DNA of 64,000 nt from an uncultured Nitrospirales bacterium. Lineage in GTDB: Bacteria > UBA10199 > JADGCS01. The DNA lies in NCBI GenBank assembly GCA_964526915.1, contig CAZGMS010000148.1:19063-83062 (forward strand), in the 5' to 3' direction. A model generated the notes under the pieces. That model had not been told where the DNA came from and made no database searches. It saw nothing but the letters and a program-made list of their open reading frames with translations. Made by a program: the position numbers and the translations under genes. This document shows, in pieces, positions 1,704 through 57,659 of this stretch (positions are counted from its first letter, which is position 1; every line of letters starts with the position of its first letter).

Positions 1704-3320
1704 TCAAAAGCCCAACTGTACTTGAACTTGTCCCACATGATAAACGCGGTCATCGGGACCAACAATGCCATCTAAATTAAAGGTATATTCAGCTTGAATT
1801 TTTGCGTTTTTTCCAGCAAAATAATACCCCATGCAGAGTGTGCCCGCATATTCATTTGCGGAATCACCATCGATATCACCACCCGATAACGTAGCTACAT
1901 TCGGCGCAAAAAAACCATCGTCGTTCGCACCATCCATCATCAAGTTTACACCTGCATCTGTGATATCATCCAACAAAGCATCGCCCCTAAGTGCAATTTC
2001 AAGTTTTTTAGGAATCACGAAATAGCTAGCCATAACAGTTGCCCCAACATCCGTTTGAGCTCTTGTAAATTGGTCAGGATCTACCTGCCGATAATTCCCG
2101 CCGACAATCAATGAAAAACCTTTGTATTTAAAACGGGTGTCTCCTGCGCCACCGAGCACCCTTGCCTGTGTCCCATCATCCATGTGACCAAAAGCAACTC
2201 CAAACCCGAATGTAAATATGGGGCTTTCTGAATAGGCAATATCTCCTTGGGCCGAATCCATTTTTCCCAGCACATTAAAATCGAACCTGCTAGTATAAAA
2301 CATCTCGGTGTTGGTATTTTCTTTGTAGGCCAAAGCCTGGCCGTTGGCCACGGACAATTTATAACTAAACCAACCAATTTCTCCAGTGGTTTCCAAACCA
2401 ACAGCATCGCCGTAGTCGAATCTGAACGCTGTTAAAGGCACCGAAATAAACATGAGCCCACCAGAACTCAAGACAATATTAGAAATCCCGCCCGGTTGTT
2501 TTGTAGCATTCACAATAAACGCGGGGTGAAATGCATAGCCAATAGCAAAAGTGTAAAGCGAGGTAGAACTAGCCGGAGAAAGTGTAATGTTGTAGGTAAA
2601 TTTTTCACTAAACGCATTTCCATCGATATTGAAATAAAGTCTTCTCAAGTTAAATGTGTGCCCATCCTCCAGGTCCTCCGCAAGAATAAAAGAATATTTA
2701 AACTGCAATCTGCCCGAAAAAATAATTTTAAATTTACCATCTTCGCTTTGTATAAAAAAACCTCCGTCGTATCCCGATGACTTGCCTTCTCCCTTGCCAG
2801 TTCTCATTTCAGCAAGTTCTTGTCTTAGATTGCCTATTTCTGTTAAAATGTATGATGTGTTATACTGGTTGGACTGGAAAGAGTGTTCTCTTCGTTGTTT
2901 CGGTTTTTTTTCTTCTGTCACAGGTTCTGGGATTGAAGATGACGCTGGTTCCGCCACCGGTGCAACAGCTTCAGGCTGAACCCGTTGCACCACAGGTGTA
3001 TCCTGCGTTTTCACCACATTGATAGTGGGTTGTGGTGGGGATGTGGCTTCTTCGACCACCTCGGTCTCGGGGTCCGCTGAAGGCGCTGTTGTATCGGAAG
3101 GCAGGGGTTTTAAGGAATTGTAATACGATTCGGGCAGAGTATTGGGGACATCCGTTGTGACTACAATGTTTTGTTGCTGGGTGGCGGCTGGGGAAACCTC
3201 TGCCACAACAGGCTCAATCCCGTTATAGGCCCGCCGTTTGATCTGGGCACTGGCCAGAACAGTGGCCGACAACAACACGCTCACACAAAAAATACAAATG
3301 ATCACGATATAACGTTTCAT
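1704..3320 (-). CDS. outer-membrane beta-barrel porin-like protein with Pro/Glu/Thr-rich linker and coiled coil
   Basis: Signal peptide MKRYIVIICIFCVSVLLSATVLASA; low-complexity P/E/T linker; alternating beta-strand pattern; C-terminal VQVQLGF with terminal Phe as in OMP barrels. Upstream ORF extension (IPAFAGMT) is translation of a hairpin repeat and was trimmed to ATG 3320. Confidence 0.5.
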   Translation of the reverse strand: MKRYIVIICIFCVSVLLSATVLASAQIKRRAYNGIEPVVAEVSPAATQQQNIVVTTDVPNTLPESYYNSLKPLPSDTTAPSADPETEVVEEATSPPQPTINVVKTQDTPVVQRVQPEAVAPVAEPASSSIPEPVTEEKKPKQRREHSFQSNQYNTSYILTEIGNLRQELAEMRTGKGEGKSSGYDGGFFIQSEDGKFKIIFSGRLQFKYSFILAEDLEDGHTFNLRRLYFNIDGNAFSEKFTYNITLSPASSTSLYTFAIGYAFHPAFIVNATKQPGGISNIVLSSGGLMFISVPLTAFRFDYGDAVGLETTGEIGWFSYKLSVANGQALAYKENTNTEMFYTSRFDFNVLGKMDSAQGDIAYSESPIFTFGFGVAFGHMDDGTQARVLGGAGDTRFKYKGFSLIVGGNYRQVDPDQFTRAQTDVGATVMASYFVIPKKLEIALRGDALLDDITDAGVNLMMDGANDDGFFAPNVATLSGGDIDGDSANEYAGTLCMGYYFAGKNAKIQAEYTFNLDGIVGPDDRVYHVGQVQVQLGF

Positions 3321-3364
3321 AAGACTCTTCCCTTTTGCTACCAAACCCAACTTCATATTAATCA

Positions 3365-3452
3365 TCCAGCTTTGACTTGTCATTCCAGCGAAAGCTGGGA
3401 TCCATGAATAGAAAAATATGGATTCCAGCTTTCGCTGGAATGACAAACATGT
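3365..3452. repeat. MITE-like nested inverted-repeat element (two inverted ~28-bp hairpin units TGTCATTCCAGCGAAAGCTGG[G/A]ATCCATG)
   Basis: Unit 1 at 3377-3406 and unit 2 at 3418-3446 are reverse complements; each unit is itself a hairpin (ATTCCAGC/GCTGGAAT around a GAAA/TTTC loop); extra CCAGCTTT/AAAGCTGG arms flank them. Confidence 0.55.
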
Positions 3453-4249
3453 CACTCACAAACAGCTGTGGTCGCGGAATTTTCGATATAACTTTCGACA
3501 TCCCCCATATCATAAGAGTTACCAGAGTAGCTCACAATCCCATCCAACCCATCGCTGGATAAACTCGTGCTCAGATAATATGTAAAACTGTAGCTTTGAT
3601 CCGCCGCCGTGCTTCCCACAGAAACATCGAGCGCAACACTCGTGCCTGAAGAAACTTCTGTTGTATCGGAAATACCTTGGCCACTTACATCATTACCTCC
3701 CAACACATATTCTAAATTAATATCCGTTTGGAGTTCACCTGTTACCGTTGGTGTAATAGCACATGTTCCGCTTTCTGTTTCGAGTACAATAATGTCCTGA
3801 CAACTACTATACTGAATAACAAACGAACCGACTAGCGTACCAGAATTCTGTGATGCCCCCAACGTGAACGTTGCGGACCCAATTATGTTCTTCGTACCTG
3901 CTGTAGTACAATCAATATCTTCACTCAGATCTATTGTAACACTTTGCTCATCTCCTCCGGGGTTGATGCTAAATTTTACCTGGTTATAGGCACCCGGCTC
4001 ATCATAACTTCCTGTAACCTCGGCAATATAATCTTCAAGCTTCCCCCTAATAGTATTAACCTTAGCCAGCACATCGGTACTCACCAACAAGTCCACCGGT
4101 CCCACGTTGGTGGCCACATCGTCTGTGACCGCAGACACATTGGGGTTGACATCGTCATTATTAACGGAATTGCTGTCGCAGTTAACAAAAAGAAACGAAA
4201 ACAACACCACAAGACACAAAATAAAAACTTTTTTTGAACAAATGGACAT
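3452..4249 (-). CDS. secreted/lipoprotein-like hypothetical protein (Thr/Ser/Gly/Val-rich)
   Basis: Start ATG 4249 gives MSICSKKVFILCLVVLFSFLFVNC, a signal peptide with a Cys; no recognisable catalytic motif. Confidence 0.4.
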   Translation of the reverse strand: MSICSKKVFILCLVVLFSFLFVNCDSNSVNNDDVNPNVSAVTDDVATNVGPVDLLVSTDVLAKVNTIRGKLEDYIAEVTGSYDEPGAYNQVKFSINPGGDEQSVTIDLSEDIDCTTAGTKNIIGSATFTLGASQNSGTLVGSFVIQYSSCQDIIVLETESGTCAITPTVTGELQTDINLEYVLGGNDVSGQGISDTTEVSSGTSVALDVSVGSTAADQSYSFTYYLSTSLSSDGLDGIVSYSGNSYDMGDVESYIENSATTAVCE

Positions 4250-4347
4250 GGTGACTCCCACAAATATCGCCAACGACCTGAACCTGAGCATTAGCGATAA
4301 TCCCAACGAGAATCAAGAGATAATACAAGAGGATGGCTTAGAAAAAA

Positions 4348-5304
4348 TCACACCAGATCGCAGGCAATTTGGTGATTTTCCCCAATGCGCCTGAGCTGGG
4401 GAACTTTTTGGGCACATTCCGGCAACGCCCGTGGGCAACGGGGGTGAAACACACAACCCGTGGGAGGGTTGATGGGAGAAGGCACATCACCTTCCAGTAT
4501 TTGGCGCTGTTTTTTGACCGTGGGGTCCGGCACGGGGATGGCCGAGATCAGACTCTTGGTATAGGGGTGCTGAACTGTATTCATGTTTACGGCCCTGAAC
4601 AGTTCCATCACCCTGCCTAGGTACATCACGCAAATCGTGTCGGAAACATGCTCCACCACCTTGAGGTCATGCGCAATAAAAATGAGCGTGAGTCCGAATT
4701 GTTCTTTGATGTCCTGCACTAAATTGATGATCTGCGCCTGGATCGAAATGTCCAGCGCCGACACGGCCTCATCGGCAATAATGAGTTTGGGGTTGACTGA
4801 CAACGCGCGCGCGATGCCAATGCGTTGACGTTGACCACCAGAAAACTCGTGTGGGTATTTGAGCATGACGTCTTCGTCCAGCCCCACCAATCGAAGTATC
4901 TCTACGGCTTTATCAAAAAGGTCCGCACGCGCGCAAATTTTATGGATGCGCAAGGGCTCCATGATGGCCTTGCCAATACACATTCGCGGGTTGAGAGACG
5001 AAAAAGGGTCCTGAAAAATCACCTGCATGTCTTTGCGCAAGGGCCTCATCTGCGCATTAGAAAACGATGTGATGTTCACCCCGTTGAACAGGATATCACC
5101 CCGATCGGGCTTGATGAGTCTCAAGATGAGCCGTCCCAGTGTGGTCTTGCCACAACCCGATTCCCCCACAAGCCCCAGGACTTCGCCCTGTTTTAGCTCC
5201 AGACTGACATCAGTTACCGCCTTGACACTCTGCCGCCGTCCCCCAAACAGGCCCTGGCGCACCGGAAACGTTTTATGAAGATTTTTTATTTCTAAAATAT
5301 TCAT
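4348..5304 (-). CDS. oppF: oligopeptide/dipeptide ABC transporter ATP-binding protein (OppF/DppF-like)
   Basis: Walker A GESGCGKTT, ABC signature LSGGQRQR, Walker B LIIADEAVSALD, C-terminal oligopeptide-transporter extension; start ATG 5304 (MNILEIKNL). Confidence 0.8.
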   Translation of the reverse strand: MNILEIKNLHKTFPVRQGLFGGRRQSVKAVTDVSLELKQGEVLGLVGESGCGKTTLGRLILRLIKPDRGDILFNGVNITSFSNAQMRPLRKDMQVIFQDPFSSLNPRMCIGKAIMEPLRIHKICARADLFDKAVEILRLVGLDEDVMLKYPHEFSGGQRQRIGIARALSVNPKLIIADEAVSALDISIQAQIINLVQDIKEQFGLTLIFIAHDLKVVEHVSDTICVMYLGRVMELFRAVNMNTVQHPYTKSLISAIPVPDPTVKKQRQILEGDVPSPINPPTGCVFHPRCPRALPECAQKVPQLRRIGENHQIACDLV

Positions 5305-5351
5305 GTCAAAAACAGCTGAAAGCTCAAAGCTCAAAGCTCAAAGGAAGAAAA

Positions 5352-5500
5352 CGAATGTCGAATAATGAGCAAGGATTTTCGAAGTGATTGTCATTCCTGC
5401 GCAAGCAGGAATCCATGTTTACATTAATTCTGGATCCCTGCCTTCGCAGGGATGACAAATTTCGATATTCGACATTCCTTGTTCGATATTCGATATTCAG
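5352..5500. repeat. large imperfect palindromic element (MITE-like) containing a second family of TGTCATTCCTGCG-AAGCAGG-ATCCA hairpin units plus TTCGATAT tandem triplet
   Basis: Outer arms GAATGTCGAATA (5353-5364) and TATTCGACATTC (5466-5477) are reverse complements; inner units 5388-5417 and 5430-5460 are inverted copies related to the 3377-3446 units. Confidence 0.5.
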
Positions 5501-5544
5501 TACCATATGCCTTTCGCCTTAAGCCTTTGGCCTTGAGCCAAAAA

Positions 5545-6519
5545 TTAATACGTATTCACACACCGCCATTGCCTCTCCCCCTCTTGTGTTAAGCCAATGG
5601 GACCGAGCCCACATTCCGGTGCTTTGCGTTCACACCGAGCCTGAAACCGACACCCTATCGGCAAATCCAACAAACTGGGCACCATACCGGGAATCGCGTG
5701 CAACCTCTTTTCAGCCTTGCCCTGAAGACTGGGGATCGATGCCAGCAAACCTTTGGTATATGGGTGTTTGGGGCTTTTGAACAACGACATCGTGTCGGCT
5801 TCCTCTACGATTTGTCCTGCGTACATCACGGCCACCTTGGTGGCATACGCGGCCACAATCCCCAAATCATGCGTGATGAGCAAAACCGACATGCCCGTTT
5901 CGTCGACCAATTTCTTGATGAGTTCCAATATCTGCGCCTGAATGGTCACGTCGAGCGCCGTAGTGGGCTCATCGGCGATCAACAATTCGGGCTCGCATGA
6001 AAGCCCCATGGCGATCATCACCCGCTGTCGCATGCCGCCACTCATTTCGTGCGGGTAATTATCGATCCGCGATTCGGGGTTGGGAATGCCCACACGCTCC
6101 AGCAGATCGACAGCCAGTGCCCGAGCCTGAATCCCGCTCACCTTCTGGTGCAGGGCAATGGCCTCCATGATCTGGTCTCCCACCGTGTACACGGGATTGA
6201 GACTGGTCATGGGCTCCTGAAAAATCATGGCAATGCGGGTGCCTCGCACTGTTTGCCTCACCTGTTCTTCCGCCAGAGCCAACACATCCCGCTCACCATC
6301 CTGTGTGTGCAACAAAACCCTGCCCCCCTCAACCCTGCCGGGCGCCTGAATCAAACGCAACACACTCATGGCCGTCACGGACTTACCGCTTCCGGATTCG
6401 CCGACCAGTGCAGTGATTTTGCCCTTTGGCAAATCCAGGCTCACATCATCGACCGCATAAATCTTGCCCTGACGGGTGGTAAAGGATGTTCGGAGGTTTT
6501 TGATTTCTAAAATATTCAT
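5545..6519 (-). CDS. oppD: oligopeptide ABC transporter ATP-binding protein (OppD/DppD-like)
   Basis: Walker [10 protein letters not shown], signature MSGGMRQR, Walker [14 protein letters not shown]-loop ITHDL. Confidence 0.85.
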
Positions 6520-6600
6520 GTTAAAAACAGCTCAAAGGAAAAGCGTATCGCGTAGAAGGTTTCGCTTGTGCCCTTGAGGGTACTTATCGTCATCAACTGT

Positions 6601-6675
6601 AGCAATTACTGCAATTGTTGCAATCATTGCAATTGCCGCAATTGCTACGATTGCCCATTGCAAATTGCTCAATTG
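6601..6675. repeat. tandem array of about 8 units of a 9-bp repeat built on the 8-bp palindrome GCAATTGC
   Basis: agcaattac tgcaattgt tgcaatcat tgcaattgc cgcaattgc tacgattgc ccattgcaa attgctcaa; period 9, each unit contains the self-complementary CAATTG. Confidence 0.6.
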
Positions 6676-6681
6676 TTTCGT

Positions 6682-6719
6682 CCCTCGCCTGCCCTGAGCG
6701 CAGTCGAAGGGTCCCTCGT
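6682..6719. repeat. 38-bp dispersed intergenic repeat, copy 1 (CCCTCGCCTGCCCTGAGCGCAGTCGAAGGGTCCCTCGT)
   Basis: Identical 38-mer recurs at 7817-7854; both copies lie 25-55 nt beyond the 3' ends of consecutive minus-strand genes (oppC, oppB). Confidence 0.7.
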
Positions 6720-6743
6720 AAGCTCGTGCGCTCGTAAGCTCGT

Positions 6744-7760
6744 TTATCCCCCCCGTGGATCCACCGCGTCCCTCAGGCCCTCTCCCATCAAATTAAACGC
6801 TGTGATCGTTAAAAAAATGGCCGCGCCCGGAAAGGCCATGAGCCACCAGGCGATGTCCATATATTCGCGCGACTGACTTAAAATCTGTCCCCAACTCGCC
6901 GTGGGCGGCTGTACCCCAAAACCCAAAAAGGAAAGAGAGGATTCCACCAAAATCGATGACGCCACACCAAACGTGATCGACACCAAAACCGGCGACAACG
7001 CGTTGGGCAAAATGTGTCTGAAAATGATTCCTGTCGTCGACACCCCCAGGGCCCGGGCACTCGTCACAAAATCCTGCCCACGAAGTTTCATGAACTCGCC
7101 CCTCACCAGACGGGCAATGCCCGTCCAGCCCGTAAAGCCAATAACGATCATGATTTTGTACAGACTGGGCTCAATGAACGCGATGATCGCCAGGATCAAA
7201 AAGAAGGTGGGAAAGCACATCACGATTTCAATAAACCGCGAAATGATGATGTCGGGCCAGCCGCCAAAATAACCGGCCAGAGAACCGATGATGATCCCGA
7301 TGAGCACATAGATTCCCACTGCCACAAAACCAACCGACAGACTGATTTGGGCCCCGTAGAGCATGCGGGCCGCCACATCGCGGCCTTGATCATCCGTGCC
7401 CATCAAGTGATCCTTCGAAGGAGGCAGAAGAATGCTGTCCAAATCGAACTCGTACGGCGAATACGGAATAGGGGGCATCACAAACGAGTGAGCTGATTTG
7501 TTTTGTAATTTGCGAAAATCAGTTTCTAAAAACTGGGGGTAGGTCACAAAGCGGCCGACGAGAAACACATCCTCCAAAACAGGAAACGTTGTTTTCCCTT
7601 CGTGTTGATAGTAATAGGGCTTGTTGTTGGCCAAAAACGGTGCCGCCAGGGCCAACAAGACAGCAAGCAGAACAAACACAAACCCCACACGATTGAGGTA
7701 GGCGCCCCAAAATTTATCCCAGATCAAACGTGAGAATGTTTTGCGTTTCTGTTTTTTCAT
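6744..7760 (-). CDS. oppC: oligopeptide ABC transporter permease (OppC/DppC-like)
   Basis: N-terminal OppC-type extension, 6 TM segments, ABC permease EAA-like loop SARALGVSTTGIIFRHILPNALSPV. Confidence 0.85.
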   Translation of the reverse strand: MKKQKRKTFSRLIWDKFWGAYLNRVGFVFVLLAVLLALAAPFLANNKPYYYQHEGKTTFPVLEDVFLVGRFVTYPQFLETDFRKLQNKSAHSFVMPPIPYSPYEFDLDSILLPPSKDHLMGTDDQGRDVAARMLYGAQISLSVGFVAVGIYVLIGIIIGSLAGYFGGWPDIIISRFIEIVMCFPTFFLILAIIAFIEPSLYKIMIVIGFTGWTGIARLVRGEFMKLRGQDFVTSARALGVSTTGIIFRHILPNALSPVLVSITFGVASSILVESSLSFLGFGVQPPTASWGQILSQSREYMDIAWWLMAFPGAAIFLTITAFNLMGEGLRDAVDPRGG

Positions 7761-7816
7761 TAGTTCATTGTTTCATTTCTTGATTGATTCATTCATTCAT
7801 TCATTTGTTTATTCGC

Positions 7817-7854
7817 CCCTCGCCTGCCCTGAGCGCAGTCGAAGGGTCCCTCGT
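7817..7854. repeat. 38-bp dispersed intergenic repeat, copy 2
   Basis: Exact match to 6682-6719. Confidence 0.7.
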
Positions 7855-7870
7855 CCTTTCGTTCTTCCCC

Positions 7871-8975: not shown

Positions 8976-9046
8976 GTGGATCGTGGATCGTGGTTCGTGG
9001 ATCGCAAAACAGCTCTTTCACGATTCACTATACACGATCCACGATC
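8976..9046 (-). promoter_or_regulatory. intercistronic stem-loop between oppA and oppB (GTGGATC x4 tandem heptads paired with CACGATCCACGATC)
   Basis: 14-bp perfect inverted repeat with alternative slipped pairings; overlaps the oppA stop codon; position is analogous to REP/stem-loops that stabilise the upstream binding-protein mRNA in opp/mal/his operons. Confidence 0.45.
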
Positions 9047-10607
9047 AACGGTTTCTCACCGTCCACTCCCTCAGCTCCAACCCCGCGGGGTGGGTCTTCA
9101 CGTTGCCAAACCGCTTTGACACGGCAATGATGTTGGGCTGGTTATACAAAAACGTATACGGCTGTTCCTCGTGAATAATTTTGTGAAACAGCCGATATTT
9201 GACATTCCGCTTTTCTTCATCAAATTCTTCGCGCGCCTCGCGCATGAGCTTGGAGGCCTCCACGTTCACGTAGGAAATGTAGTTTGAACTGCTTTTGATG
9301 TTGGCCTGCGACATATCCCACACCTGATACGGATCGGCCTCAAACGGCATTGTGCACGCCAGTGTCACCACGTCAAAATCGCGGTTATAGAGCTTATCGA
9401 GGAAGGCCGCCCATTCCAGGCGACTCATGTTCATCTCGATGCCCACCCGCTGGAGGGCCTCCTTATAAATTGTCCCCACACGTTCAGCGAACTTGCTGCC
9501 CGATGGAAACAAATAAGTAAAGCTAAACCTCTTGCCCTCCTTGTCTAAAATGCCATCTCCATCAGAATCACGCCAACCCGCCGCTTTCAATAACGCCTTA
9601 GCTTGGGCAATGTTGTATTCGTGGGGCTCGATGGTGCTGTCGTACTGTTTGCTCCCTACAAAAAATGGCCCTGTCACAATCTCCCCCAGCCCAAAATTTA
9701 TTTTTTCGTTGATTTTTTTCCTGTTGAGCAATTGTGTCATGGCCTGACGCACCCGCGGATCCTGAAATATCGGGTGTTTGTTGTTCCAACCAATGTAGGA
9801 ATACCCCGTAGAGGGATATTTCAGGACATGAAACATGTCGGCAAATTTTTGGGAGCTTGTCTGGCGGGCCCATTGAATCGTGGTGAGGCCCATCACATCA
9901 AGTTCACCCTTCTTGAGAATCTGTAATCCGATTGCTGTATCGGACACAACCTTGAATTCAATAACCCTGATGGCTGGTTTGGGCCCCCAATAGGCCTCGT
10001 TTCGCTCCAAAACAATGTGACCATTGGTTACCCATTCCTTGAATTGATAGGGCCCCGTCCCCACGGGATGGCGCGAGAAGGGACTGGCATCAAAATCCTT
10101 ATAAGGGGACACAATGTGTTTGGGGACTATGGGAAAGGCGCCGCACATGATGAGTCCGCGAAAATAAACCTTATCGTACTCAAAGCGTACCGTGTACTCA
10201 TCGACCTTGTACACACGCTTGACGTCCTGATAATAACTCTTGAGTGCCGGAGCATTGAACTCGGGATTCATGAACACATCATTGTAGGAATACACCACGT
10301 CCTCAGCCGTAAAGGGCTGGCCATCGTGCCAGGTCACATCTTTGCGCAAATAAAACGTATAAATTTTTTTGTCGTCTGAGATTTCCCACCGCTCTGCCAG
10401 GGCAGGAATGTATGCCAGCGTATCTTTGTCTTGATCAATAAGGGTATCAAAAACGTAATTATTGACCATGTGGGCATACCCGTCCGAAGCAGTCATGGGA
10501 TTGAGCGTCGATGGATCGGAAGCGATCGCAATGCGGATGTGGTCTGGCGCCACAGAGCGGTTAACGTCACACGCACCCAGAACAAACACGACCAGCACCA
10601 CTGTCAT
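9045..10607 (-). CDS. oppA: oligopeptide-binding periplasmic lipoprotein (SBP family 5, OppA-like)
   Basis: Family-5 SBP motifs throughout; ATG 10607 gives lipoprotein signal MTVVLVVFVLGAC (lipobox LGAC); an in-frame ATG at 10664 abuts the upstream gene stop, so the start is ambiguous. Confidence 0.8.
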   Translation of the reverse strand: MTVVLVVFVLGACDVNRSVAPDHIRIAIASDPSTLNPMTASDGYAHMVNNYVFDTLIDQDKDTLAYIPALAERWEISDDKKIYTFYLRKDVTWHDGQPFTAEDVVYSYNDVFMNPEFNAPALKSYYQDVKRVYKVDEYTVRFEYDKVYFRGLIMCGAFPIVPKHIVSPYKDFDASPFSRHPVGTGPYQFKEWVTNGHIVLERNEAYWGPKPAIRVIEFKVVSDTAIGLQILKKGELDVMGLTTIQWARQTSSQKFADMFHVLKYPSTGYSYIGWNNKHPIFQDPRVRQAMTQLLNRKKINEKINFGLGEIVTGPFFVGSKQYDSTIEPHEYNIAQAKALLKAAGWRDSDGDGILDKEGKRFSFTYLFPSGSKFAERVGTIYKEALQRVGIEMNMSRLEWAAFLDKLYNRDFDVVTLACTMPFEADPYQVWDMSQANIKSSSNYISYVNVEASKLMREAREEFDEEKRNVKYRLFHKIIHEEQPYTFLYNQPNIIAVSKRFGNVKTHPAGLELREWTVRNR

Positions 10608-14647: not shown

Positions 14648-14670
14648 GAATTCCTTTCAGCTTTCACCTT

Positions 14671-15567
14671 TCAGCTTTGAGCTTGTATCTCCCCCTCAAA
14701 CACAGTGGTCGCCGGACCTGTTTTGATGACGTGTCCGGTCCTCTGCGACCATTTGATTTCCAGATCACCTCCTTTGAGTGAAACGGTCACGTTTTTATCT
14801 GTCATGTTGTTGAGCACACTGGCCACCACAGAGGCACAAGCACCTGTCCCACAAGCCAGAGTCTCTCCCACGCCGCGTTCCCACGTACGTTGTTTGATGC
14901 GGTTGCGGTCGATGATTTGAACAAACTCAACATTCGTGCGATTGGGAAACCTGGGGTGGTTTTCAAAATAAGGGCCAACGCGCTCAACGGGATAATGTTC
15001 CACATCGTGAACAAAGATCACGCAATGCGGATTTCCCATGGATATTTCATTAATAAAAAACCTGCGCTGATCGTCTGACCGCCAGGATGCCGGGACTTGA
15101 TCAACGGTAATCGGAACCTCAATGTTCCAGGGCGGCAACTGGACAACAGCAGGAGACGTTTTGGCGTGAATGGATTGGGGTTCACCCATGTCGACCTTCA
15201 CCCAAAGGGTGCTCGGTATTGTTCTTGGATGATCGAGAACAATCTCTGGTTTGATCAGTCCTGCCGCTGTTTCGACCACTAACTCAGTTTGTTGCGTGAG
15301 TCCCTGGTCTCGAACGTACTTGGCAAAACAGCGAATCCCGTTGCCGCACATTTCGACCTCACCACCATCGGCGTTGAAAATGAGCATCTTAAAATCGGCC
15401 GCTGTGCTTGGTTGTACGACCAAAACCTGATCGGCACCAATGCCAAACCGTCGGTCACAGATTTTTTTGGACAACTGACCTAAGTAAGGGGGAAGCGTTT
15501 GACTAATCCCATTGAGAATGATGAAATCATTGCCCGTCCCGTGCATTTTTGTGAATGAAATTTGCAT
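14671..15567 (-). CDS. dapF: diaminopimelate epimerase
   Basis: MHGTGNDFIIL, catalytic Cys motifs CGNGIRC and ACGTGACA. Confidence 0.85.
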   Translation of the reverse strand: MQISFTKMHGTGNDFIILNGISQTLPPYLGQLSKKICDRRFGIGADQVLVVQPSTAADFKMLIFNADGGEVEMCGNGIRCFAKYVRDQGLTQQTELVVETAAGLIKPEIVLDHPRTIPSTLWVKVDMGEPQSIHAKTSPAVVQLPPWNIEVPITVDQVPASWRSDDQRRFFINEISMGNPHCVIFVHDVEHYPVERVGPYFENHPRFPNRTNVEFVQIIDRNRIKQRTWERGVGETLACGTGACASVVASVLNNMTDKNVTVSLKGGDLEIKWSQRTGHVIKTGPATTVFEGEIQAQS

Positions 15568-39853: not shown

Positions 39854-39926
39854 GGGGATGTAGCTCAATTGGTAGAGCGCTTGAATGGCATTCAAGAGGT
39901 AGTCGGTTCGATCCCGATCATCTCCA
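39854..39926 (+). tRNA. tRNA-Ala (anticodon GGC)
   Basis: Cloverleaf folded by hand: acceptor GGGGATG/CATCTCC with G3:U70; D-arm GCTCAATTGGTAGAGC; anticodon stem CTTGA/TCAAG with loop ATGGCAT; T-arm GGTTCGATCC; CCA not encoded. Confidence 0.85.
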
Positions 39927-50009: not shown

Positions 50010-50385
50010 GGGGCCGATAACGGTTTCGACGGGGATGACGCGTGTATGATCGGCAGGCCGAGTTGAAGGCACTCGTTAAACGACTTCACAAATCCAATTG
50101 CAAACGATAACTTTGCACAGGCACCTGAGCTTGCTCTGGCTGCTTGACCTGATCTCATAGTAGATCACGTTCATGTTGTGGATCGCCTCAGTCGATGGCA
50201 TGGGCGTAACCAATTGGGGCTCGCTTGGTAGTTTTGTCTACTGGCTACCGGGCTAAATAAAAATGGGCTGGCCAAAAAAATCCGGTCACGGGGAAACTTT
50301 TTTGGTAAGATTCAAACTGTGGCTAAGCTTGTAGAAGGCATACACAAACATTTTCGGACGTGGGTTCGACTCCCACCGGCTCCAC
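50010..50385 (+). ncRNA. ssrA: tmRNA (ssrA), one-piece
   Basis: 5' GGGGCCGATAACGGTTTCGACGGGG; 3' GGACGTGGGTTCGACTCCCACCGGCTCCA(C) tRNA-like end; internal tag reading frame GCA AAC GAT AAC TTT GCA CAG GCA CCT GAG CTT GCT CTG GCT GCT TGA gives ANDNFAQAPELALAA. Confidence 0.85.
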
Positions 50386-50430
50386 TTTTTGGGTTGTTTC
50401 ATACGATCCAATAACATTCAAAGAAATACT

Positions 50431-51809: not shown

Positions 51810-52615
51810 AAACAAACGGCAAACTACTTCCACAGCAGACCCTGCTCATTGAACTTGAGCACGTTTTAGAAACATTCACATTGGAAGAACGCAAGAGCCT
51901 ATTCGAGTACTGGGAGCATCGTGACAAATCACATGTGTTAAGAAGAGACTGGTGGCACCAAAAATTCTACCGCAGAAAAGATGAAAATGAAAAAAATGAT
52001 GGTTTTGTTGAACAATCTTTTGCCCTGAAGAGCATTGTTGTTACAGAAAAACCATACACCAGAGAGATGTTTTATAATTCCGACGGAAGATTTGGTTTGC
52101 CTAATAAACCGGTTGCCTACTTTTCAGACTGGCTGACCGGCACATGTGAGATGCTACCCGCCTTTCGAGACAATCCTCTTCTGACATCAGAGGAGTTGGA
52201 ATTATACATGTCACGCAAACTTGACCCTGATCCCACGGGGGGAAAGCTATGTGGTTATCCACGTGTATTCTTCTTACATCCTGATGTTGTGATACTAAAT
52301 TTATCCAGGCCGACAGCTTCTTTTTTTAGTATTTTGCAAAACAAATCCAGAGATCTGTTTGGCTTTGTTGTCAGCAGTATAATGAGTAGAGACAAATCGT
52401 GTTATCTATTAACCCAGGTTATTTCTTCTTTTGCCCACAAGTTCGGATTTCATGGGGCATTATATCGCTCGGTTCGCATTCCTCGTGATTGGCACTTTAC
52501 CGGTGGTGAAAATTTGGTTTTGTTTTGTGACCAAATCAATGGTGTGCCCATTGTAGAAAGAAGGATGGATAGGATTGAACGTAACAAAACTCACAACTTG
52601 AAAAACAATCAATGA
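51806..52615 (+). CDS. RES-domain-like protein (putative NAD-targeting toxin family), co-transcribed with the integrase
   Basis: GTG start overlaps the integrase stop (GTGA) with GGGAGG SD; GRFGLPNKPVAYFSDWLTGTCE and RSVRIP...ENLVLFCD resemble the R...E...S core of RES domains. Confidence 0.4.
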   Translation: MKTNGKLLPQQTLLIELEHVLETFTLEERKSLFEYWEHRDKSHVLRRDWWHQKFYRRKDENEKNDGFVEQSFALKSIVVTEKPYTREMFYNSDGRFGLPNKPVAYFSDWLTGTCEMLPAFRDNPLLTSEELELYMSRKLDPDPTGGKLCGYPRVFFLHPDVVILNLSRPTASFFSILQNKSRDLFGFVVSSIMSRDKSCYLLTQVISSFAHKFGFHGALYRSVRIPRDWHFTGGENLVLFCDQINGVPIVERRMDRIERNKTHNLKNNQ

Positions 52616-52630
52616 ATCAAAAGGAGTCTC

Positions 52631-52951
52631 ATGGCTAAGGGTGGTCACAGGGAAGGTGCGGGGAGAAAAAAGGGAAGCGCAAACCTTCTTACTCAAAAAC
52701 TTCGCGAACAGATCAACGCGCCCAGGCTGATTCGGTTGTTACAAGAAATTGCCGATGGCACGGTTGAAGGTGGTGCGTCTGTGGCCGAGAGAAAAGACGC
52801 GGCCATCGCCCTGCTACGCAAGGTATTGCCAGATTGCCGAACGGAAGATGTTGGGGCATCAACTGCCCCCACGACGGTTGTTATTCACAGCAATGTGCCG
52901 ATGGGGTTTAGTAGGAATAAAGAGAATTTTGATCTAATAAAGCATCAGTAA
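52631..52951 (+). CDS. hypothetical protein with basic N-terminus (MAKGGHREGAGRKKGS)
   Basis: ORF with AAGGAG SD; the N-terminus resembles phage small DNA-binding / terminase-small-subunit leaders; otherwise unassignable. Confidence 0.3.
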   Translation: MAKGGHREGAGRKKGSANLLTQKLREQINAPRLIRLLQEIADGTVEGGASVAERKDAAIALLRKVLPDCRTEDVGASTAPTTVVIHSNVPMGFSRNKENFDLIKHQ

Positions 52952-53008
52952 CCAGTTAAAATTATTCATTTTTTGATTAATATTCATCTAAAACCCATCT
53001 AAATTCAT

Positions 53009-54634
53009 CTAATTTGAACGGGTGATCCGCCACCGTCCTTTAAGTGATGATCCGTCATAAAATATCTTTCCGTTCTTTTTTAGTTCCTGAAGTATGTTGG
53101 AAATATCTTGAGGCAGATATTCAGAGAAGCCACTGATCAGGTCTTCGCGCCTAGACGGTTTCCCGGCTCGTATATGATTCAGTACCAATTCTTTGATCTG
53201 GTCGCGAGTCAGGCCTTTTAATCTTGTATGTTTTCCACTTTGACCAATTGTTTCGTAATAGCGGTGGGAAAGAATGTATTTGGTACCACTCGTTTTACCA
53301 ACAGCTTCAATAATACCCGCTTTAAGAAATTTTTTCTTTAAGTCGGCATTAACCATGGATTCCCCGCGTCTAACACGCTCCAATTCCAAAATTTCGTGAA
53401 CATCCAAAAGAATTTGATTTTCGCGTGCGACCTTTTCCAAAAACAAAACAAACGACTTGTCCTGCACCTGTGCTGGAATTTTAATGACAACCGAATAATG
53501 GTCACTACTCGACAAATCAGGAAGCCCTTTGCCATCACGAATACAGTGCGCAAAAATATCGTCCATTCCCTGGCCGGATCGTTCGACGAGCCCCACCTTT
53601 TCAAGCGTTTCGGCAAGTCGTCGGTTACGCCAACTCTTTTGATCAATCACATTTTCGGGTGTAATGCCCGGCAAAAACCCACCGGGGCTTTCAATCGTAA
53701 TGGACTTAGAATTGGCAAGAATGAATATCGAGCGACCACGGATTGAATAATCGCGGTGCGTGATGGCGTTTAACCAAGCCTCGCGAACTGATTTTTCATC
53801 AAACGCCATGATCTCTTTTTGAAAAAGCCCGTCTTGATACGGAATACGAAAGTTACGGGCATTAATAATCTGCCAAACGACATCATGAATTTTAAAATAG
53901 GGCTCGCGCCAACATTCGCGAAAGTCGTGGTGCGTCTGTTCCGCTGTGCTACGCCACTCAAAGATGATCTCTGAGTCAGCCAACAGTCTGTCCAAAAATG
54001 ATTTTTTACCCAAGAGAATCAGGCAGGCGTAATTCAGCCGGTTGTTTTCTATGAGATTGAGGGCATCCAAAATTTTGTGGGTGCTGTAGTTGAGAATTTC
54101 TGGACGTTTCTTTTTGTCGGCCCAAATACTTTTTAAGTTCTTAAGCGCATCGGGATCAAGATCATCAGTGGTCATGCCCTCAACAATAGTGGCCGAAAAA
54201 TCGGGCTGTACCTCATTAAGAATTTGACGTGTTTTATGGTCATCCATTTCAACAAGCGATTCACCGACTCTCATGGGATAGGTGTAATCGCCTGTTGATC
54301 GAACGCGCTGTCCTTTGTGTCTGGCGGGGATATGAAAGACGAGCACGCGCCCGTCTGAATGATTTAGTTCTTCAACATCGATTCTGATTTTAAGCTTTTG
54401 CAACAGTTCGTGTGGGAGTTTGTTATAAGTTCCAGAAAAGGCATTTGTGCCAACGACAACCCGACCATCGGTCACTCCCAATATCAGTTTGCCACCACCT
54501 TCGTTGGCTAGGGCTGCGCAATAATCGGGCAAATCCTTGTCTTTGCTAAAGCTGTTTTTTGCCGTCTTGAATTCAAGATTCAAGCCTTCTGGTTGTTTCA
54601 GCCAATGGGTGAATTGTTCGAGAGTGGTTTTCAT
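53009..54634 (-). CDS. AlbA_2 (Schlafen-like) + HATPase_c_4 + C-terminal wHTH protein
   Basis: N-terminal EGLNLEFKTAKNSF...ALANEGGGKLILGV (AlbA_2 core); central HRDYS...GRSIFI...ITIESPGG (HATPase_c_4); ATG 54634 with GGAGGG SD. Confidence 0.55.
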   Translation of the reverse strand: MKTTLEQFTHWLKQPEGLNLEFKTAKNSFSKDKDLPDYCAALANEGGGKLILGVTDGRVVVGTNAFSGTYNKLPHELLQKLKIRIDVEELNHSDGRVLVFHIPARHKGQRVRSTGDYTYPMRVGESLVEMDDHKTRQILNEVQPDFSATIVEGMTTDDLDPDALKNLKSIWADKKKRPEILNYSTHKILDALNLIENNRLNYACLILLGKKSFLDRLLADSEIIFEWRSTAEQTHHDFRECWREPYFKIHDVVWQIINARNFRIPYQDGLFQKEIMAFDEKSVREAWLNAITHRDYSIRGRSIFILANSKSITIESPGGFLPGITPENVIDQKSWRNRRLAETLEKVGLVERSGQGMDDIFAHCIRDGKGLPDLSSSDHYSVVIKIPAQVQDKSFVLFLEKVARENQILLDVHEILELERVRRGESMVNADLKKKFLKAGIIEAVGKTSGTKYILSHRYYETIGQSGKHTRLKGLTRDQIKELVLNHIRAGKPSRREDLISGFSEYLPQDISNILQELKKNGKIFYDGSSLKGRWRITRSN

Positions 54635-54737
54635 TGGGTTGAACCCTCCAGCATTTTGATGGCATCCTCAGCATGGCCATAAGAACCCATGAATACCTTG
54701 TGTCTGTCTTTTGTGGTGTTGAAGAGGGTGGATTTGA

Positions 54738-54755
54738 GGGGGGGGGCGTTTTTTT
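54738..54755. repeat. homopolymeric G9 tract followed by T7 in the intergenic region upstream of the Schlafen-like gene
   Basis: GAGGGGGGGGGCGTTTTTTTGAG read directly from the sequence. Confidence 0.6.
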
Positions 54756-54816
54756 GAGTCCTCGGCTTCTTGTTTTGTTTTGGTTTCATAATCTATCATT
54801 TCGAAAGATTGCAGAG

Positions 54817-56694: not shown

Positions 56695-57659
56695 AAGCTT
56701 CTCTCCACAATTTTGATTTTATGTTCGGTGGGACCGTAGAGCTTGTCACCCGAATCATGTCGTTTCTTATGCTCCCCGTAATATTCGGTAAGTTTTGTGC
56801 ATATACGGTTTTTCAGATCAGGAAATTCATTAAAGGGATAATATGTCACTGTGTTTTTTACTGACTCAAGAAAGGATTTTAATTCGCTGGTCTGCTGTGA
56901 TTGGGCATCTGTAAACAAAAACCGGTGTTTGCTATGCGCAGCATTGAACTCTTTTTTAACCGCGGGTCTTATTTCATTACGAAACATTCCAATGTAAACG
57001 TCACAGTTCTTCACAGCTTCCAAATAAAGTTCTTCCGGGGGCTCTGGGGCTGGGCTGGCATCTGATTCGAATACAAACACATGATAGAGTCGTCCAATCA
57101 CTGGATCAGTTTCTATGAGAAATTTTAGAAGTTTTCGTTCATGCAAAAACTCATCCTGTGCAGAACTCAAAAAAACCTTGAGTTTATCATTGAGCTTAAG
57201 GCCCATCTCTTCCCATAATATGTGACAGTTTAATTTTGTTTTGCTTATTTCTATCTCAATTTGATGTGCTTGTTGATCCTTTATTCTGCCGGCTGTCATT
57301 GTGTCACCACGCATCAAATCATCAATGACCTGAAATAGATGATCCTTGTTATGAAAAGAAAACAACTCCTGCTCAACCATCGTCCTAAAATCACCACTTG
57401 GCAGTACATTGTACTCCACACAAAGGCGCCTTACCTCGCCAATGCAATCATCGACAATTCTTCTTCTTGTGGCCATAAATAATTCAATCTGATTATGATG
57501 CCTCATGCCGGAATTTAATGTACCCCTTGCGTTATGCCCATTATCTATTTTTATTTTGTCCTTTCGTGACTCATCAAGGTGAGCTTCAGAAATTCTTGTT
57601 TTATGATTTTGCCACAAATCAAAAATGCGTTTTTCAAATGGATTAAGTTGATTGTTCAT
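56691..57659 (-). CDS. hypothetical protein, operon partner of unknown function (possible C-terminal DUF4062-like Rossmann region)
   Basis: ATGA overlaps on both sides; no confident motif; the C-terminal segment LYHVFVFESDA...CDVYIGMFRNE weakly resembles the DUF4062 nucleoside-deoxyribosyltransferase-like pattern. Confidence 0.3.
   Translation of the reverse strand: MNNQLNPFEKRIFDLWQNHKTRISEAHLDESRKDKIKIDNGHNARGTLNSGMRHHNQIELFMATRRRIVDDCIGEVRRLCVEYNVLPSGDFRTMVEQELFSFHNKDHLFQVIDDLMRGDTMTAGRIKDQQAHQIEIEISKTKLNCHILWEEMGLKLNDKLKVFLSSAQDEFLHERKLLKFLIETDPVIGRLYHVFVFESDASPAPEPPEELYLEAVKNCDVYIGMFRNEIRPAVKKEFNAAHSKHRFLFTDAQSQQTSELKSFLESVKNTVTYYPFNEFPDLKNRICTKLTEYYGEHKKRHDSGDKLYGPTEHKIKIVERSL

What the first reader, a model, noticed from the sequence alone, without database searches (positions are those of the whole stretch)
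3365..5500. Two related MITE-like nested-hairpin elements in intergenic regions of the OMP/lipoprotein/opp gene array
Element 1 (3365-3452) and element 2 (5352-5500) each consist of two inverted copies of an approximately 28-bp unit. The units are TGTCATTCCAGCGAAAGCTGGGATCCATG and TGTCATTCCTGCGCAAGCAGGAATCCATG; each is itself a GNRA-like hairpin. Element 2 is additionally flanked by 12-bp terminal inverted repeats GAATGTCGAATA/TATTCGACATTC and a TTCGATAT triplet. They sit precisely between convergent or tandem genes and generate spurious ORF extensions (IPAFAGMT). This looks like a small non-autonomous mobile element family or REP/BIME-like mRNA-structure elements.
Basis: seen in the sequence. 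Interest (0 to 1): 0.5.

Follow-up and report, generated by a model that had tools for sequence, protein, structure and literature searches.

The report
Known Ssn-type hairpin repeats, paired
The two palindromic elements are real, but they are local copies of a hairpin DNA repeat already described in 2025 (the NTS/dRS3 or "Ssn-related motif" family, cut as single-stranded DNA by small GIY-YIG nucleases), so this is another instance of a known element and not a new kind of mobile element.

Summary
Window 3377-3446 (E1) and 5388-5458 (E2) are each two inverted copies of a ~28-nt hairpin unit. A covariance model finds exactly these four units in 64 kb (43-50 bits; next best 13 bits).

The unit is the published NTS/dRS3 hairpin of Neisseria, generalised as the Ssn-related motif (SRM; PMC11893778). 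Both E1 units fit the published SRM pattern exactly. The E2 units miss it only at a compensated stem pair. This genome's own 29-mer variant occurs in about 18 phylum-level groups, and inverted doublets like E1 are abundant in metagenomes.

Small GIY-YIG (Ssn-like) genes lie near units in 8 of about 360 fetched loci. No RAYT was detected, with low-sensitivity seeds. Neither gene is in the window, and the source genome could not be retrieved, so the partner protein and genome copy number are untested.

The nearest relatives (~70% OppF identity) keep the same gene order with short junctions and no units. There are no target-site duplications. E2's "terminal inverted repeats" are heptamer arrays native to this lineage's spacers, and the oppA-oppB spacer is the same kind of palindrome without a doublet.

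Verdict: a new member of a known kind, of low to moderate interest.

The parts
3378..3405 (+). E1 left unit TGTCATTCCAGCGAAAGCTGGGATCCAT (SRM/NTS-type hairpin with a GCGAAAGC apex)
   Evidence: Exact match to the published SRM pattern. Covariance-model hit 3375-3408 (+), 43.0 bits, E 2.5e-9.
3406..3417 (.). E1 spacer. It is AT-rich, and T-rich in the direction of transcription.
   Evidence: It forms the loop of the long hairpin. The first unit plus this tract is flagged terminator-like on the minus strand.
3418..3445 (-). E1 right unit (reverse complement TGTCATTCCAGCGAAAGCTGGAATCCAT)
   Evidence: Exact SRM pattern match. Covariance-model hit 3415-3448 (-), 49.6 bits.
3371..3452 (-). E1 as a whole: a single long hairpin between the lipoprotein stop codon (3452) and the OMP-like gene start (3320)
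   Evidence: DNA fold -32.4 kcal/mol, RNA fold -49.9 kcal/mol, z = -12.1 for both. Identical in same-organism contigs L001, L002, L248, L249 and L280.
5389..5416 (+). E2 left unit TGTCATTCCTGCGCAAGCAGGAATCCAT (stem pair switched to T·A, compensated)
   Evidence: Covariance-model hit 5386-5419 (+), 48.1 bits. It misses the SRM pattern only at position V.
5417..5430 (.). E2 spacer, unrelated in sequence to E1's spacer
5431..5458 (-). E2 right unit (reverse complement TGTCATCCCTGCGAAGGCAGGGATCCA)
   Evidence: Covariance-model hit 5427-5460 (-), 45.0 bits.
5350..5383 (.). E2 inner left arm, made of CGAATNT-type heptamers.
   Evidence: Inverted repeats I3 and I10.
5461..5498 (.). E2 inner right arm: TTCGATA x5.4 tandem array. 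It contains TATTCGACATTC.
   Evidence: TRF period 7.
5314..5343 (.). E2 outer left arm: AGCTCAA x4.3 heptamer array next to the oppF start
   Evidence: TRF. It pairs with 5509-5539 in the fold.
5509..5539 (.). E2 outer right arm: GCCTTNN heptamers next to the oppD stop
   Evidence: TRF. A related AAGGCGT array sits at the same site in relative L243, which has no hairpin units.
1704..3320 (-). OMP-like gene downstream of E1
   Evidence: Translation. Syntenic 505-532 aa gene in relatives.
3452..4249 (-). Lipoprotein-like gene upstream of E1
   Evidence: Translation. Syntenic 267-aa gene in relatives.
4348..5304 (-). oppF-like ABC ATPase downstream of E2
   Evidence: Pfam ABC_tran and oligo_HPY.
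5545..6519 (-). oppD-like ABC ATPase upstream of E2
   Evidence: Pfam ABC_tran and oligo_HPY.

Best explanation
E1 and E2 are inverted doublets of the SRM/NTS hairpin repeat (the dRS3 superfamily). This is a pan-bacterial, REP-like family of ~28-nt units.

**The unit.** Each unit is an 8-bp hairpin, ATTCCNGC / GCNGGAAT. Its apex is often GCGNNAGC, a motif reported to be extraordinarily stable as DNA. The hairpin sits between two fixed unpaired flanks, 5' GTC and 3' C, which give the unit an orientation.

**Shown elsewhere (PMC11893778).**
- Small single-domain GIY-YIG nucleases (Ssn) bind and cut this motif.
- They do so only as single-stranded DNA, only on the forward strand, and just 5' of the hairpin.
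- In Neisseria this reduces integration of incoming motif-bearing DNA.
- ssn genes are themselves bracketed by the motif.

**Inferred for this window.**
- When either strand of the locus is single-stranded (replication, repair or DNA uptake), each doublet presents one forward unit per strand to an Ssn-type nuclease encoded elsewhere in the genome.
- The doublets reached these two spacers by a single-strand route that leaves no duplication. E2 landed at the apex of a pre-existing heptamer-array palindrome.
- Both elements are transcribed within a co-oriented gene array and fold into very stable RNA hairpins. As a side effect they probably alter mRNA processing or stability, and E1's first unit plus its T-rich spacer may weakly terminate transcription.
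For: **Identity of the unit.**
- Both E1 units fit the published SRM pattern exactly, against 0.2 expected per shuffled window.
- The four units keep the GTC and C flanks that the paper found critical for cleavage and binding.

**Family breadth.**
- A 21-specified-base pattern hits at least 120 viral contigs.
- This genome's own 29-mer hits at least 120 stretches in about 18 phylum-level groups, including at least 8 in the complete Desulfonema magnum genome.

**Hairpin covariation.**
- 148 of 150 units are complementary at the free stem position.
- In a 48-unit alignment that pair uses all four Watson-Crick types (CG 19, GC 11, UA 11, AU 7), with 100% pairing.

**The doublet is a real unit.**
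- Convergent pairs outnumber divergent pairs 32 to 4.
- At least 120 E1-type doublets occur in metagenomes, including families with conserved spacers and flanks; about 25 come from one sample.
- The two units of a doublet share the same stem variant in 108 of 113 cases.

**Partner gene.**
- GIY-YIG single-domain ORFs lie next to or between units in 8 loci.
- Published association: 71% of ssnA homologues have an SRM nearby, and 81% of genomes with more than 200 SRMs carry ssnA.

**Insertion.**
- Relatives L243 and L247 have the same synteny with 64/26-nt and 169/31-nt junctions that lack units.
- The oppA-oppB spacer is a heptamer palindrome without a doublet.

**Structure.** Fold z-scores run from -6.9 to -12.1.

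**RNA detection elsewhere.** E1 hits Rfam WsnRNA46 at 45 bits and E = 9e-8, and both elements weakly hit FtrB. The FtrB Northern probe contains a unit.

**Apex motif.** GCGNNAGC is a reported mini-hairpin DNA motif (abstract of PMC13037366).
Against: - No Ssn (GIY-YIG) gene is in the 64-kb window, and the rest of the genome could not be examined. The partner protein is assumed, not shown.
- Only four units lie in 64 kb, and both doublets sit within 2.1 kb. High copy number in this genome is unproven.
- Contig breaks at the units are only suggestive. One same-organism contig also breaks inside oppF, at window 4930.
- The relatives with empty sites are distant (~70% OppF identity), and no presence/absence polymorphism was seen among the four same-organism assemblies. 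Insertion is inferred, not observed.
- The E2 units fail the published pattern by one position each. One apex (GCGAAGGC) is not a GCGNNAGC mini-hairpin.
- In Neisseria the same sequence has been attributed to RAYT-mobilised REPINs, so the mobilising enzyme is disputed.
- All collection scans stopped at 120 rows, and the search patterns fix most positions. Conservation at those positions is by construction.
Confidence: 0.72

Rival explanations
1. REPINs mobilised by a RAYT. The doublets would be REP doublets copied by a domesticated IS200-like Y1 transposase encoded once in the genome, as proposed for the same sequence in Neisseria.
For: - The architecture matches the REPIN definition: two inverted REP-like units, a short spacer and one long hairpin.
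- Bertels and Rainey list ATTCCCGCGCAGGCGGGAATC as the Neisseria REPIN, linked to a Group 2 RAYT.
- Absence of a target-site duplication fits single-strand Y1 transposition.
- Genome-specific doublet families with conserved spacers exist.
Against: - No RAYT is in the window.
- None was detected in about 2.3 Mb flanking units in about 360 loci, by phmmer with two seeds and by a motif regex, while 8 GIY-YIG genes were found. The seeds were written from memory, so sensitivity was low.
- The units start with GTCA, not the GT[AG]G that I recall for RAYT-associated REPs (from memory, not tested).
- E1 and E2 differ in stem variant and spacer, so they are not a tight REPIN population.
Confidence: 0.13
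2. Primarily an RNA-level element in the manner of REP/BIME: a stem-loop in the polycistronic transcript that terminates transcription, protects upstream mRNA from 3' exonucleases or creates an RNase III site. That would uncouple expression of oppD from oppF and of the lipoprotein gene from the OMP-like gene.
For: - Both elements lie in spacers of a co-oriented gene array, one of them inside the opp operon.
- RNA folds are -49.9 and -97.4 kcal/mol, with z of -12.1 and -8.7.
- E1's first unit followed by CCATATTTTT is flagged terminator-like.
- The 8 nt after units are T-enriched in other genomes, about 50% T against 28%, with at least 5 of 8 T in 30% of copies.
- Homologous repeats are catalogued as sRNAs, WsnRNA46 and FtrB; FtrB was verified by Northern blot.
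Against: - No U-tract follows either complete hairpin, and E2's spacer is not T-rich.
- The unpaired GTC and C flanks that give the unit an orientation have a known role in ssDNA recognition by Ssn, which does not act on RNA.
- The same 29-mer is kept across about 18 phylum-level groups and in prophage contexts, which is hard to explain by local mRNA needs.
- Deleting ftrB gave no phenotype in the growth, stress, macrophage and mouse tests reported.
- This reading is best treated as a secondary effect, compatible with the main explanation.
Confidence: 0.3
3. A classical MITE: a deletion derivative of a DDE-transposase insertion sequence, mobilised in trans through its terminal inverted repeats.
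For: - Small size, terminal inverted repeats and intergenic location.
- Absent from the orthologous sites of relatives.
Against: - No target-site duplication at either element.
- The 'TIRs' of E1 are the SRM hairpins themselves. Those of E2 are lineage-typical heptamer arrays, which also occur without a doublet.
- No transposase with matching ends was found in the window.
- E2's composite is not repeated anywhere in 5.8 billion predicted proteins.
Confidence: 0.04

Closest known systems
NTS / dRS3 of Neisseria and the generalised Ssn-related motif (SRM), partner of Ssn GIY-YIG ssDNA nucleases (PMC11893778)
   Same: - Same unit, with GTCATTCC, an 8-bp stem, a 4-nt G-rich loop and GGAATCC.
- E1 fits the published SRM pattern exactly.
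- Intergenic location.
- The two doublets bracket genes (oppF and the lipoprotein gene), like the NTS-gene-NTS layout.
- The stem covaries while the flanks stay fixed.
   Different: - The stem pair is A·T or T·A here, against C·G in Neisseria.
- The suffix is CCAT, against CYRG.
- The units occur as tight inverted doublets with 12-15 nt spacers.
- The host is an uncultured bacterium whose nearest named relatives are 'Deltaproteobacteria' MAGs.
- The presence of ssn in this genome is untested.
REPINs (REP doublets forming hairpins) with RAYT transposases (Bertels and Rainey; bioRxiv 10.1101/2021.07.10.451892)
   Same: - Two inverted hairpin units with a short spacer, folding into one long hairpin.
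- No target-site duplication.
- The same core sequence is called a REPIN in Neisseria.
   Different: - No RAYT was detected in the window or near about 360 related loci.
- Spacers are much shorter than the Neisseria 56-nt type.
- E1 and E2 are too diverged from each other to count as one replicating population.
NIMEs (Neisseria intergenic mosaic elements) and BIMEs (E. coli REP mosaics)
   Same: E2 is a mosaic of several repeat types in one spacer, with hairpin units in alternating orientation, inside an ABC-transporter operon. That is the classic REP/BIME setting.
   Different: - NIMEs are described (from memory) as 50-150-bp RS units bounded by dRS3. Here the units bound only a 12-15-nt spacer, and the outer layers are heptamer arrays.
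- There is no sequence similarity to E. coli REP.
Rfam RF02625 WsnRNA46 (Wolbachia) and RF02748 FtrB (Francisella) small RNAs
   Same: - The WsnRNA46 consensus is itself an inverted doublet of the Wolbachia SRM unit, and E1 aligns to both its outer and inner stem parts.
- The FtrB probe contains a unit.
   Different: - Scores are below the gathering thresholds: 45.3 against 65.3, and 26.7 against 66.
- The spacer is 47 nt longer in WsnRNA46.
- Expression of E1 or E2 as discrete RNAs is untested.

Membership tests
SRM / NTS (Ssn-related motif) | Sequence fits the published degenerate pattern HGTCWYN(0-2)YYVSBRHN(0-5)WNVSBRGN(0-2)RNCYNB | tested here: met
   Both E1 units match exactly (3378-3405 +, 3418-3445 -), against 0.2 expected per shuffled window. 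The E2 units fail only at V, where they have T in the stem, compensated by A on the other side. They score 45-48 bits with the family covariance model.
SRM / NTS (Ssn-related motif) | Hairpin with fixed, orientation-giving unpaired flanks (GTC 5' of the palindrome, C 3' of it) | tested here: met
   All four units read GTCAT[T/C]CC...GG[G/A]ATCC. The role of these positions comes from the mutational data in PMC11893778.
SRM / NTS (Ssn-related motif) | Many copies per genome, enriched over shuffled expectation | not testable with these tools
   There are only 4 units in the 64-kb window. Metagenome contigs of the organism end inside the units, which is only suggestive.
SRM / NTS (Ssn-related motif) | A small single-domain GIY-YIG (cd10448, Ssn) gene in the same genome, often flanked by the motif | tested here: inconclusive
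   None in the window by regex, tblastn or phmmer --max. The rest of the genome is unavailable. In other genomes, 8 such genes lie next to units.
SRM / NTS (Ssn-related motif) | Strand-specific binding and cleavage as ssDNA by the cognate Ssn | not testable with these tools
   This needs biochemistry.
REPIN / RAYT | Two REP units in inverted orientation, close together, forming one hairpin | tested here: met
REPIN / RAYT | A population of near-identical doublets in the genome | tested here: inconclusive
   Only two doublets were seen. Their units are 78-86% alike and their spacers are unrelated. The whole genome was not available.
REPIN / RAYT | A cognate RAYT (Y1 transposase) gene flanked by the repeat | tested here: inconclusive
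   Not in the window. None was detected in about 2.3 Mb of flanks from other genomes, but the seeds were approximate and no Pfam profile could be run in bulk.
MITE (DDE-type) | Target-site duplication flanking the terminal inverted repeats | tested here: not met
   No direct repeat at the borders of E1 or E2.
MITE (DDE-type) | Presence/absence polymorphism at orthologous sites | tested here: inconclusive
   Absent in relatives at ~70-73% OppF identity. Present and identical in all four same-organism assemblies.
Rfam WsnRNA46 / FtrB | Score at or above the family's gathering threshold | tested here: not met
   45.3 against 65.3 bits, and 26.7 against 66 bits. No hit at gathering thresholds.
Intrinsic terminator | GC-rich stem-loop directly followed by a U-tract | tested here: inconclusive
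   A single E1 unit followed by CCATATTTTT passes a loose consensus scan. Neither complete hairpin is followed by a T-run.

The most novel reading that the evidence does not exclude
SRM doublets may be a class of non-autonomous single-strand hairpin elements whose spread is driven by the GIY-YIG nuclease Ssn and not by a transposase. They may preferentially land at the apex of existing hairpins.

**What does not exclude this reading.**
- Each strand of a doublet carries one forward unit with its cut site just outside, so Ssn would nick both outer borders.
- Doublets with conserved spacers and flanks multiply within genomes.
- GIY-YIG genes, but no RAYT, were seen near units (8 against 0).
- E2 sits exactly at the centre of a heptamer-array palindrome of a type that also exists empty in the same operon.

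**Status in the literature.** The Ssn paper notes only that NTS-ssnA-NTS looks like an insertion sequence. The mechanism of spread is open.
Probability: 0.2. Interest if true: 0.65.

Novelty: new member of a known kind. Interest (0 to 1): 0.27.

Why it matters
**For annotation.** These elements should be masked as SRM/NTS-type repeats. They produce spurious ORFs (WIPAFAGMT, NIEYRTRNVEYRN, LRRNDN), a false 45-codon N-terminal extension of the OMP-like gene, and contig breaks in metagenome assemblies.

**For biology.**
- The instance adds little beyond the 2025 description of the family. It does show the motif as tight inverted doublets in an uncultured lineage.
- It shows that an almost invariant 29-mer is shared by about 18 phylum-level groups, including Patescibacteria and Chloroflexota.
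- It shows that at least two Rfam 'sRNA' families are built on this DNA repeat.
- If the genome proves to carry an Ssn gene, the locus offers a simple natural substrate (four variant units with compensatory stem changes) for testing Ssn specificity.
- The empty and filled heptamer palindromes in one operon offer a way to ask how these repeats choose insertion sites.

Tried and rejected
- **Rfam at gathering thresholds.** Only tmRNA and one tRNA were found, with nothing on the elements.
- **Ssn or RAYT in the window.** None found by regex, tblastn or phmmer --max.
- **RAYT near units in about 360 loci.** Nothing. One weak hit (L086 143-496) had no Pfam match. The seeds were written from memory, so this is a weak negative.
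- **Clustering of neighbouring genes.** Dominated by prophage genes because of the viral sampling, so uninformative.
- **Finding the source genome.** No fetched genome locus matched the window. The only same-organism sequences are short contigs L001, L002, L248, L249 and L280, all covering this same locus.
- **Closer relatives for an empty-site test.** The best OppF homologue among 5.8 billion proteins is 73% identical.
- **E2 composite as a repeated element.** Its 60-aa spurious ORF has no homologue.
- **Heptamer arrays as a general companion of units.** Weak enrichment only, 11 of 276 against 3 of 264.
- **Considered and rejected without a dedicated test.**
  - Integron attC sites: no GTTRRRY/RYYYAAC cores and no integrase.
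  - Correia elements: no sequence similarity and no TA duplication.
  - CRISPR: no regular array.
  - Chance palindromes: excluded.
Full report
**1. The observation**

- E1 has two 29-nt arms (3377-3405 and 3418-3446) that are 97% complementary and 12 nt apart.
- E2 has two 28-nt arms (5388-5415 and 5431-5458) that are 86% complementary and 15 nt apart.
- A degenerate 25-mer finds exactly four matches in 64 kb, where none is expected.
- A covariance model built from 48 units of other genomes was run over the whole window with filters off. It finds the same four units at 43-50 bits. The next hit scores 13 bits, at E = 0.26. There are no degenerate relics elsewhere in the window.

All the genes here are tandem on the minus strand: oppB, oppC, oppD, E2, oppF, a lipoprotein gene, E1, and an OMP-like gene. 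So "convergent" in the finding is wrong.

The spurious coding is real. WIPAFAGMT is encoded on both strands of E1 and on one strand of E2. It gives a 61-aa phantom ORF and a 45-codon phantom extension of the OMP-like ORF.

E1 folds into one long hairpin: DNA -32.4 and RNA -49.9 kcal/mol, z = -12.1 for both. The entire 240-nt oppD-oppF spacer also folds into a single imperfect hairpin: RNA -97.4 kcal/mol with z = -8.7, and DNA -50.2 kcal/mol with z = -6.9.

**2. What the unit is**

In the 150 units recovered, the free stem position was Watson-Crick complementary in 148, using all four pair types. The consensus was YYGTCATTCCCGCGAAAGCGGGAATCCAG.

A full-text search for that sequence led to two papers.
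- **PMC11893778 (Nat Commun 2025).** It defines the 28-nt Neisseria Transformation Sequence, CGTCATTCCCGCGMAVGCGGGAATCYRG. This contains the older dRS3 repeat, ATTCCC-N8-GGGAAT. The paper also defines a degenerate generalisation, the Ssn-related motif (SRM).
  - It shows that the small single-domain GIY-YIG protein SsnA binds and cuts this motif only as single-stranded DNA, only on the forward strand, and just 5' of the hairpin.
  - The three bases 5' of the palindrome matter most for cutting. The C just 3' of it matters most for binding.
  - SsnA lowers transformation by motif-bearing DNA.
  - 71% of ssnA homologues have an SRM nearby, and 81% of genomes with more than 200 SRMs have ssnA.
- **bioRxiv 10.1101/2021.07.10.451892.** It treats the same Neisseria sequence as a REPIN tied to a Group 2 RAYT.

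Both E1 units satisfy the published SRM pattern exactly, against 0.2 matches per shuffled window. The E2 units miss it only because their variable stem pair is T·A, a compensated change. All four units keep the GTC and C flanks.

**3. Breadth**

The single genome-collection scan used this genome's own 29-mer variant, TTGTCATTCCWGCGMAAGCWGGRATCCAT. The hits fall in about 18 phylum-level groups:
- Planctomycetota, Bacteroidota, Desulfobacterota, Nitrospirota, Omnitrophota and Ignavibacteria
- several Pseudomonadota, Chloroflexota, Myxococcota and Patescibacteria
- Poribacteria, Cloacimonadota, Caldisericota, Vampirovibrionales, Campylobacterota, Bdellovibrionales and Eubacteriales

At least 8 copies lie in the complete Desulfonema magnum genome. 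In a 48-unit alignment the variable stem pair is CG 19, GC 11, UA 11 and AU 7, with no unpaired case. The other stem pairs were fixed by my search pattern and carry no information.

**4. The doublet**

In other genomes, adjacent units are convergent (GTCA ends outermost, as here) 32 times and divergent 4 times. Short-spacer doublets like E1 occur in Flavobacteriaceae, Chloroflexi, Sedimentisphaerales and Desulfonema.

- Within single samples there are families whose spacer and outer flanks are conserved at many different sites. About 25 copies come from sample Ga0209148.
- One family carries extra palindromic outer arms, the same nested design as E2.
- The two units of a doublet share the same stem variant in 108 of 113 cases.

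So elsewhere the doublet is a copied unit. In this genome, however, E1 and E2 differ in stem variant and have unrelated spacers. They are not recent copies of each other.

**5. Partner genes**

Neither an Ssn-like GIY-YIG gene nor a RAYT is in the window. Across about 360 fetched loci (about 2.3 Mb), 8 single-domain GIY-YIG ORFs lie beside or between units. Pfam confirmed the five of them that were tested. No RAYT was detected, but the RAYT seeds were approximate.

The only same-organism sequences are short contigs that cover this same locus: L001, L002, L248 (NCBI GCA_035290385.1), L249 and L280. They are 99.8-100% identical to the window and carry both elements unchanged. L001 and L002 end inside the units, which fits multi-copy sequence. 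Another contig breaks inside oppF, so this evidence is weak.

**6. Insertion**

The closest OppF homologues among 5.8 billion proteins are only 70-73% identical. Their loci keep the order oppA-B-C-D-F, lipoprotein, OMP-like.

| Junction | Window | L243 | L247 |
|---|---|---|---|
| oppD to oppF | 240 nt | 64 nt | 26 nt |
| lipoprotein to OMP-like | 131 nt | 169 nt | 31 nt |

Neither relative has a unit at either junction. L243 keeps only a one-sided AAGGCGT heptamer array after the oppD stop.

Heptamer arrays occupy other spacers in all three genomes, so they are a trait of the lineage and not the termini of a mobile element. In the window, the oppA-oppB spacer is a 74-nt palindrome of GTGGATC heptamers with no doublet at its centre: 37-nt arms, 78% complementary, z = -6.2.

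E2 therefore reads as such a palindrome with an SRM doublet at its apex. Its composite ORF has no homologue anywhere. No target-site duplication borders either element.

**7. RNA level**

A permissive Rfam scan gave E1 a sub-threshold hit to WsnRNA46 of Wolbachia: 45.3 bits against a gathering score of 65.3, with E = 9e-8. The WsnRNA46 consensus is itself an inverted doublet of the Wolbachia unit. Both elements also weakly hit FtrB of Francisella, whose Northern probe contains a unit. The many microRNA-precursor hits in that scan only reflect a long hairpin.

On the transcribed strand, E1's first unit is followed by CCATATTTTT and passes a loose terminator scan. In other genomes the 8 nt after a unit are about 50% T, against a 28% background. 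No T-run follows either complete hairpin. An effect on mRNA is plausible but secondary and untested.

**8. Verdict**

The finding is a genuine pair of SRM/NTS-type hairpin-repeat doublets, a known kind described in 2025, sitting in two spacers of an opp gene array of an uncultured bacterium.
- The classical MITE half does not.
- What remains open is open for the whole family, namely which enzyme spreads these repeats, or needs the full genome, namely copy number and the presence of ssn.

The apex GCGNNAGC, present in three of the four units, matches the reported extraordinarily stable mini-hairpin DNA motif (abstract of PMC13037366). That fits a single-stranded DNA mode of action.

Noticed in passing
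window 6679-6724 and 7813-7856: A second repeat family, unrelated to the hairpin units. A ~40-nt unit (minus strand CGAGGGACCCTTCGACTGCGCTCAGGGCAGGCGAGGG) is shared by the oppC-oppD and oppB-oppC spacers. Its exact 24-mer CCTTCGACTGCGCTCAGGGCAGGC also occurs on 5 viral contigs.
   Followed up: partly
window 8976-9049: The oppA-oppB spacer is a 74-nt palindrome made of GTGGATC heptamers facing their reverse complement (37-nt arms, 78% complementary, DNA fold z = -6.2), with no hairpin doublet at its centre. It is an 'empty' counterpart of E2's outer shell.
   Followed up: yes
window 6594-6654, 6715-6743, 7755-7805, 14654-14684; L243 5911-5961 and 6934-7003; L247 5947-6005: Short tandem arrays of 7-9-nt units (GCAATTNNN, CTCGTAAG, TTCA, CTTTCAG, GTGGATA, TAGTGAC, AAGGCGT) fill intergenic spacers in this organism and in its two nearest relatives. 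From memory, this resembles the heptamer STRR repeats of cyanobacteria. Their function is unknown.
   Followed up: partly
window 5265-5345 and 6480-6560 (minus strand); also 9005-9018: oppD and oppF share a nearly identical ~40-nt stretch that covers the leader and the first 8 codons (CCTTTGAGCTGTTTTTRACATGAATATTTTAGAAAT). This suggests gene conversion between the paralogues. The motif AAAACAGCT[CG] recurs a third time at the centre of the oppA-oppB palindrome. No obvious Shine-Dalgarno sequence precedes these start codons.
   Followed up: no
L001 about 1026-1030, corresponding to window about 5636-5678: Metagenome contig L001 (JGI 3300025152) lacks 43 nt inside the 3' end of oppD relative to the window. 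That shifts the frame and lets the ORF run into E2's outer arm. It is either a population variant or an assembly error.
   Followed up: partly
Rfam RF02625 (WsnRNA46) and RF02748 (FtrB), matched at window 3359-3457 and 5372-5475: Two curated 'sRNA' families appear to be built on copies of the SRM DNA repeat. The WsnRNA46 consensus is an inverted doublet of the Wolbachia unit, and the FtrB Northern probe contains a unit. Neither source paper seen here makes that connection.
   Followed up: partly
L123-L242 (genome contigs): An almost invariant non-coding 29-mer, with 4 degenerate positions, is shared by about 18 phylum-level groups, including Patescibacteria, Chloroflexota and Caldisericota. 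This is wider than the mainly Pseudomonadati distribution stressed in the Ssn paper. The scan was cut at 120 rows, so the true breadth is larger.
   Followed up: partly
window 52000-64000: G+C falls to 0.37-0.41 here, against 0.44-0.51 over the rest of the window. This may be a foreign or specialised gene cluster, with large ORFs 57656-61423 and 61420-63912.
   Followed up: no
window 50010-50387 and 39854-39926: A standard one-piece tmRNA (183 bits) and one tRNA gene.
   Followed up: no
L086 1897-2542 and similar Neisseria-type loci: Neisseria-type copies of the repeat generate the recurrent phantom peptides VIPAQAGIQ, SFPRKRESR and LRGNDG in called ORFs. These are the C·G-stem counterparts of WIPAFAGMT here.
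   Followed up: no
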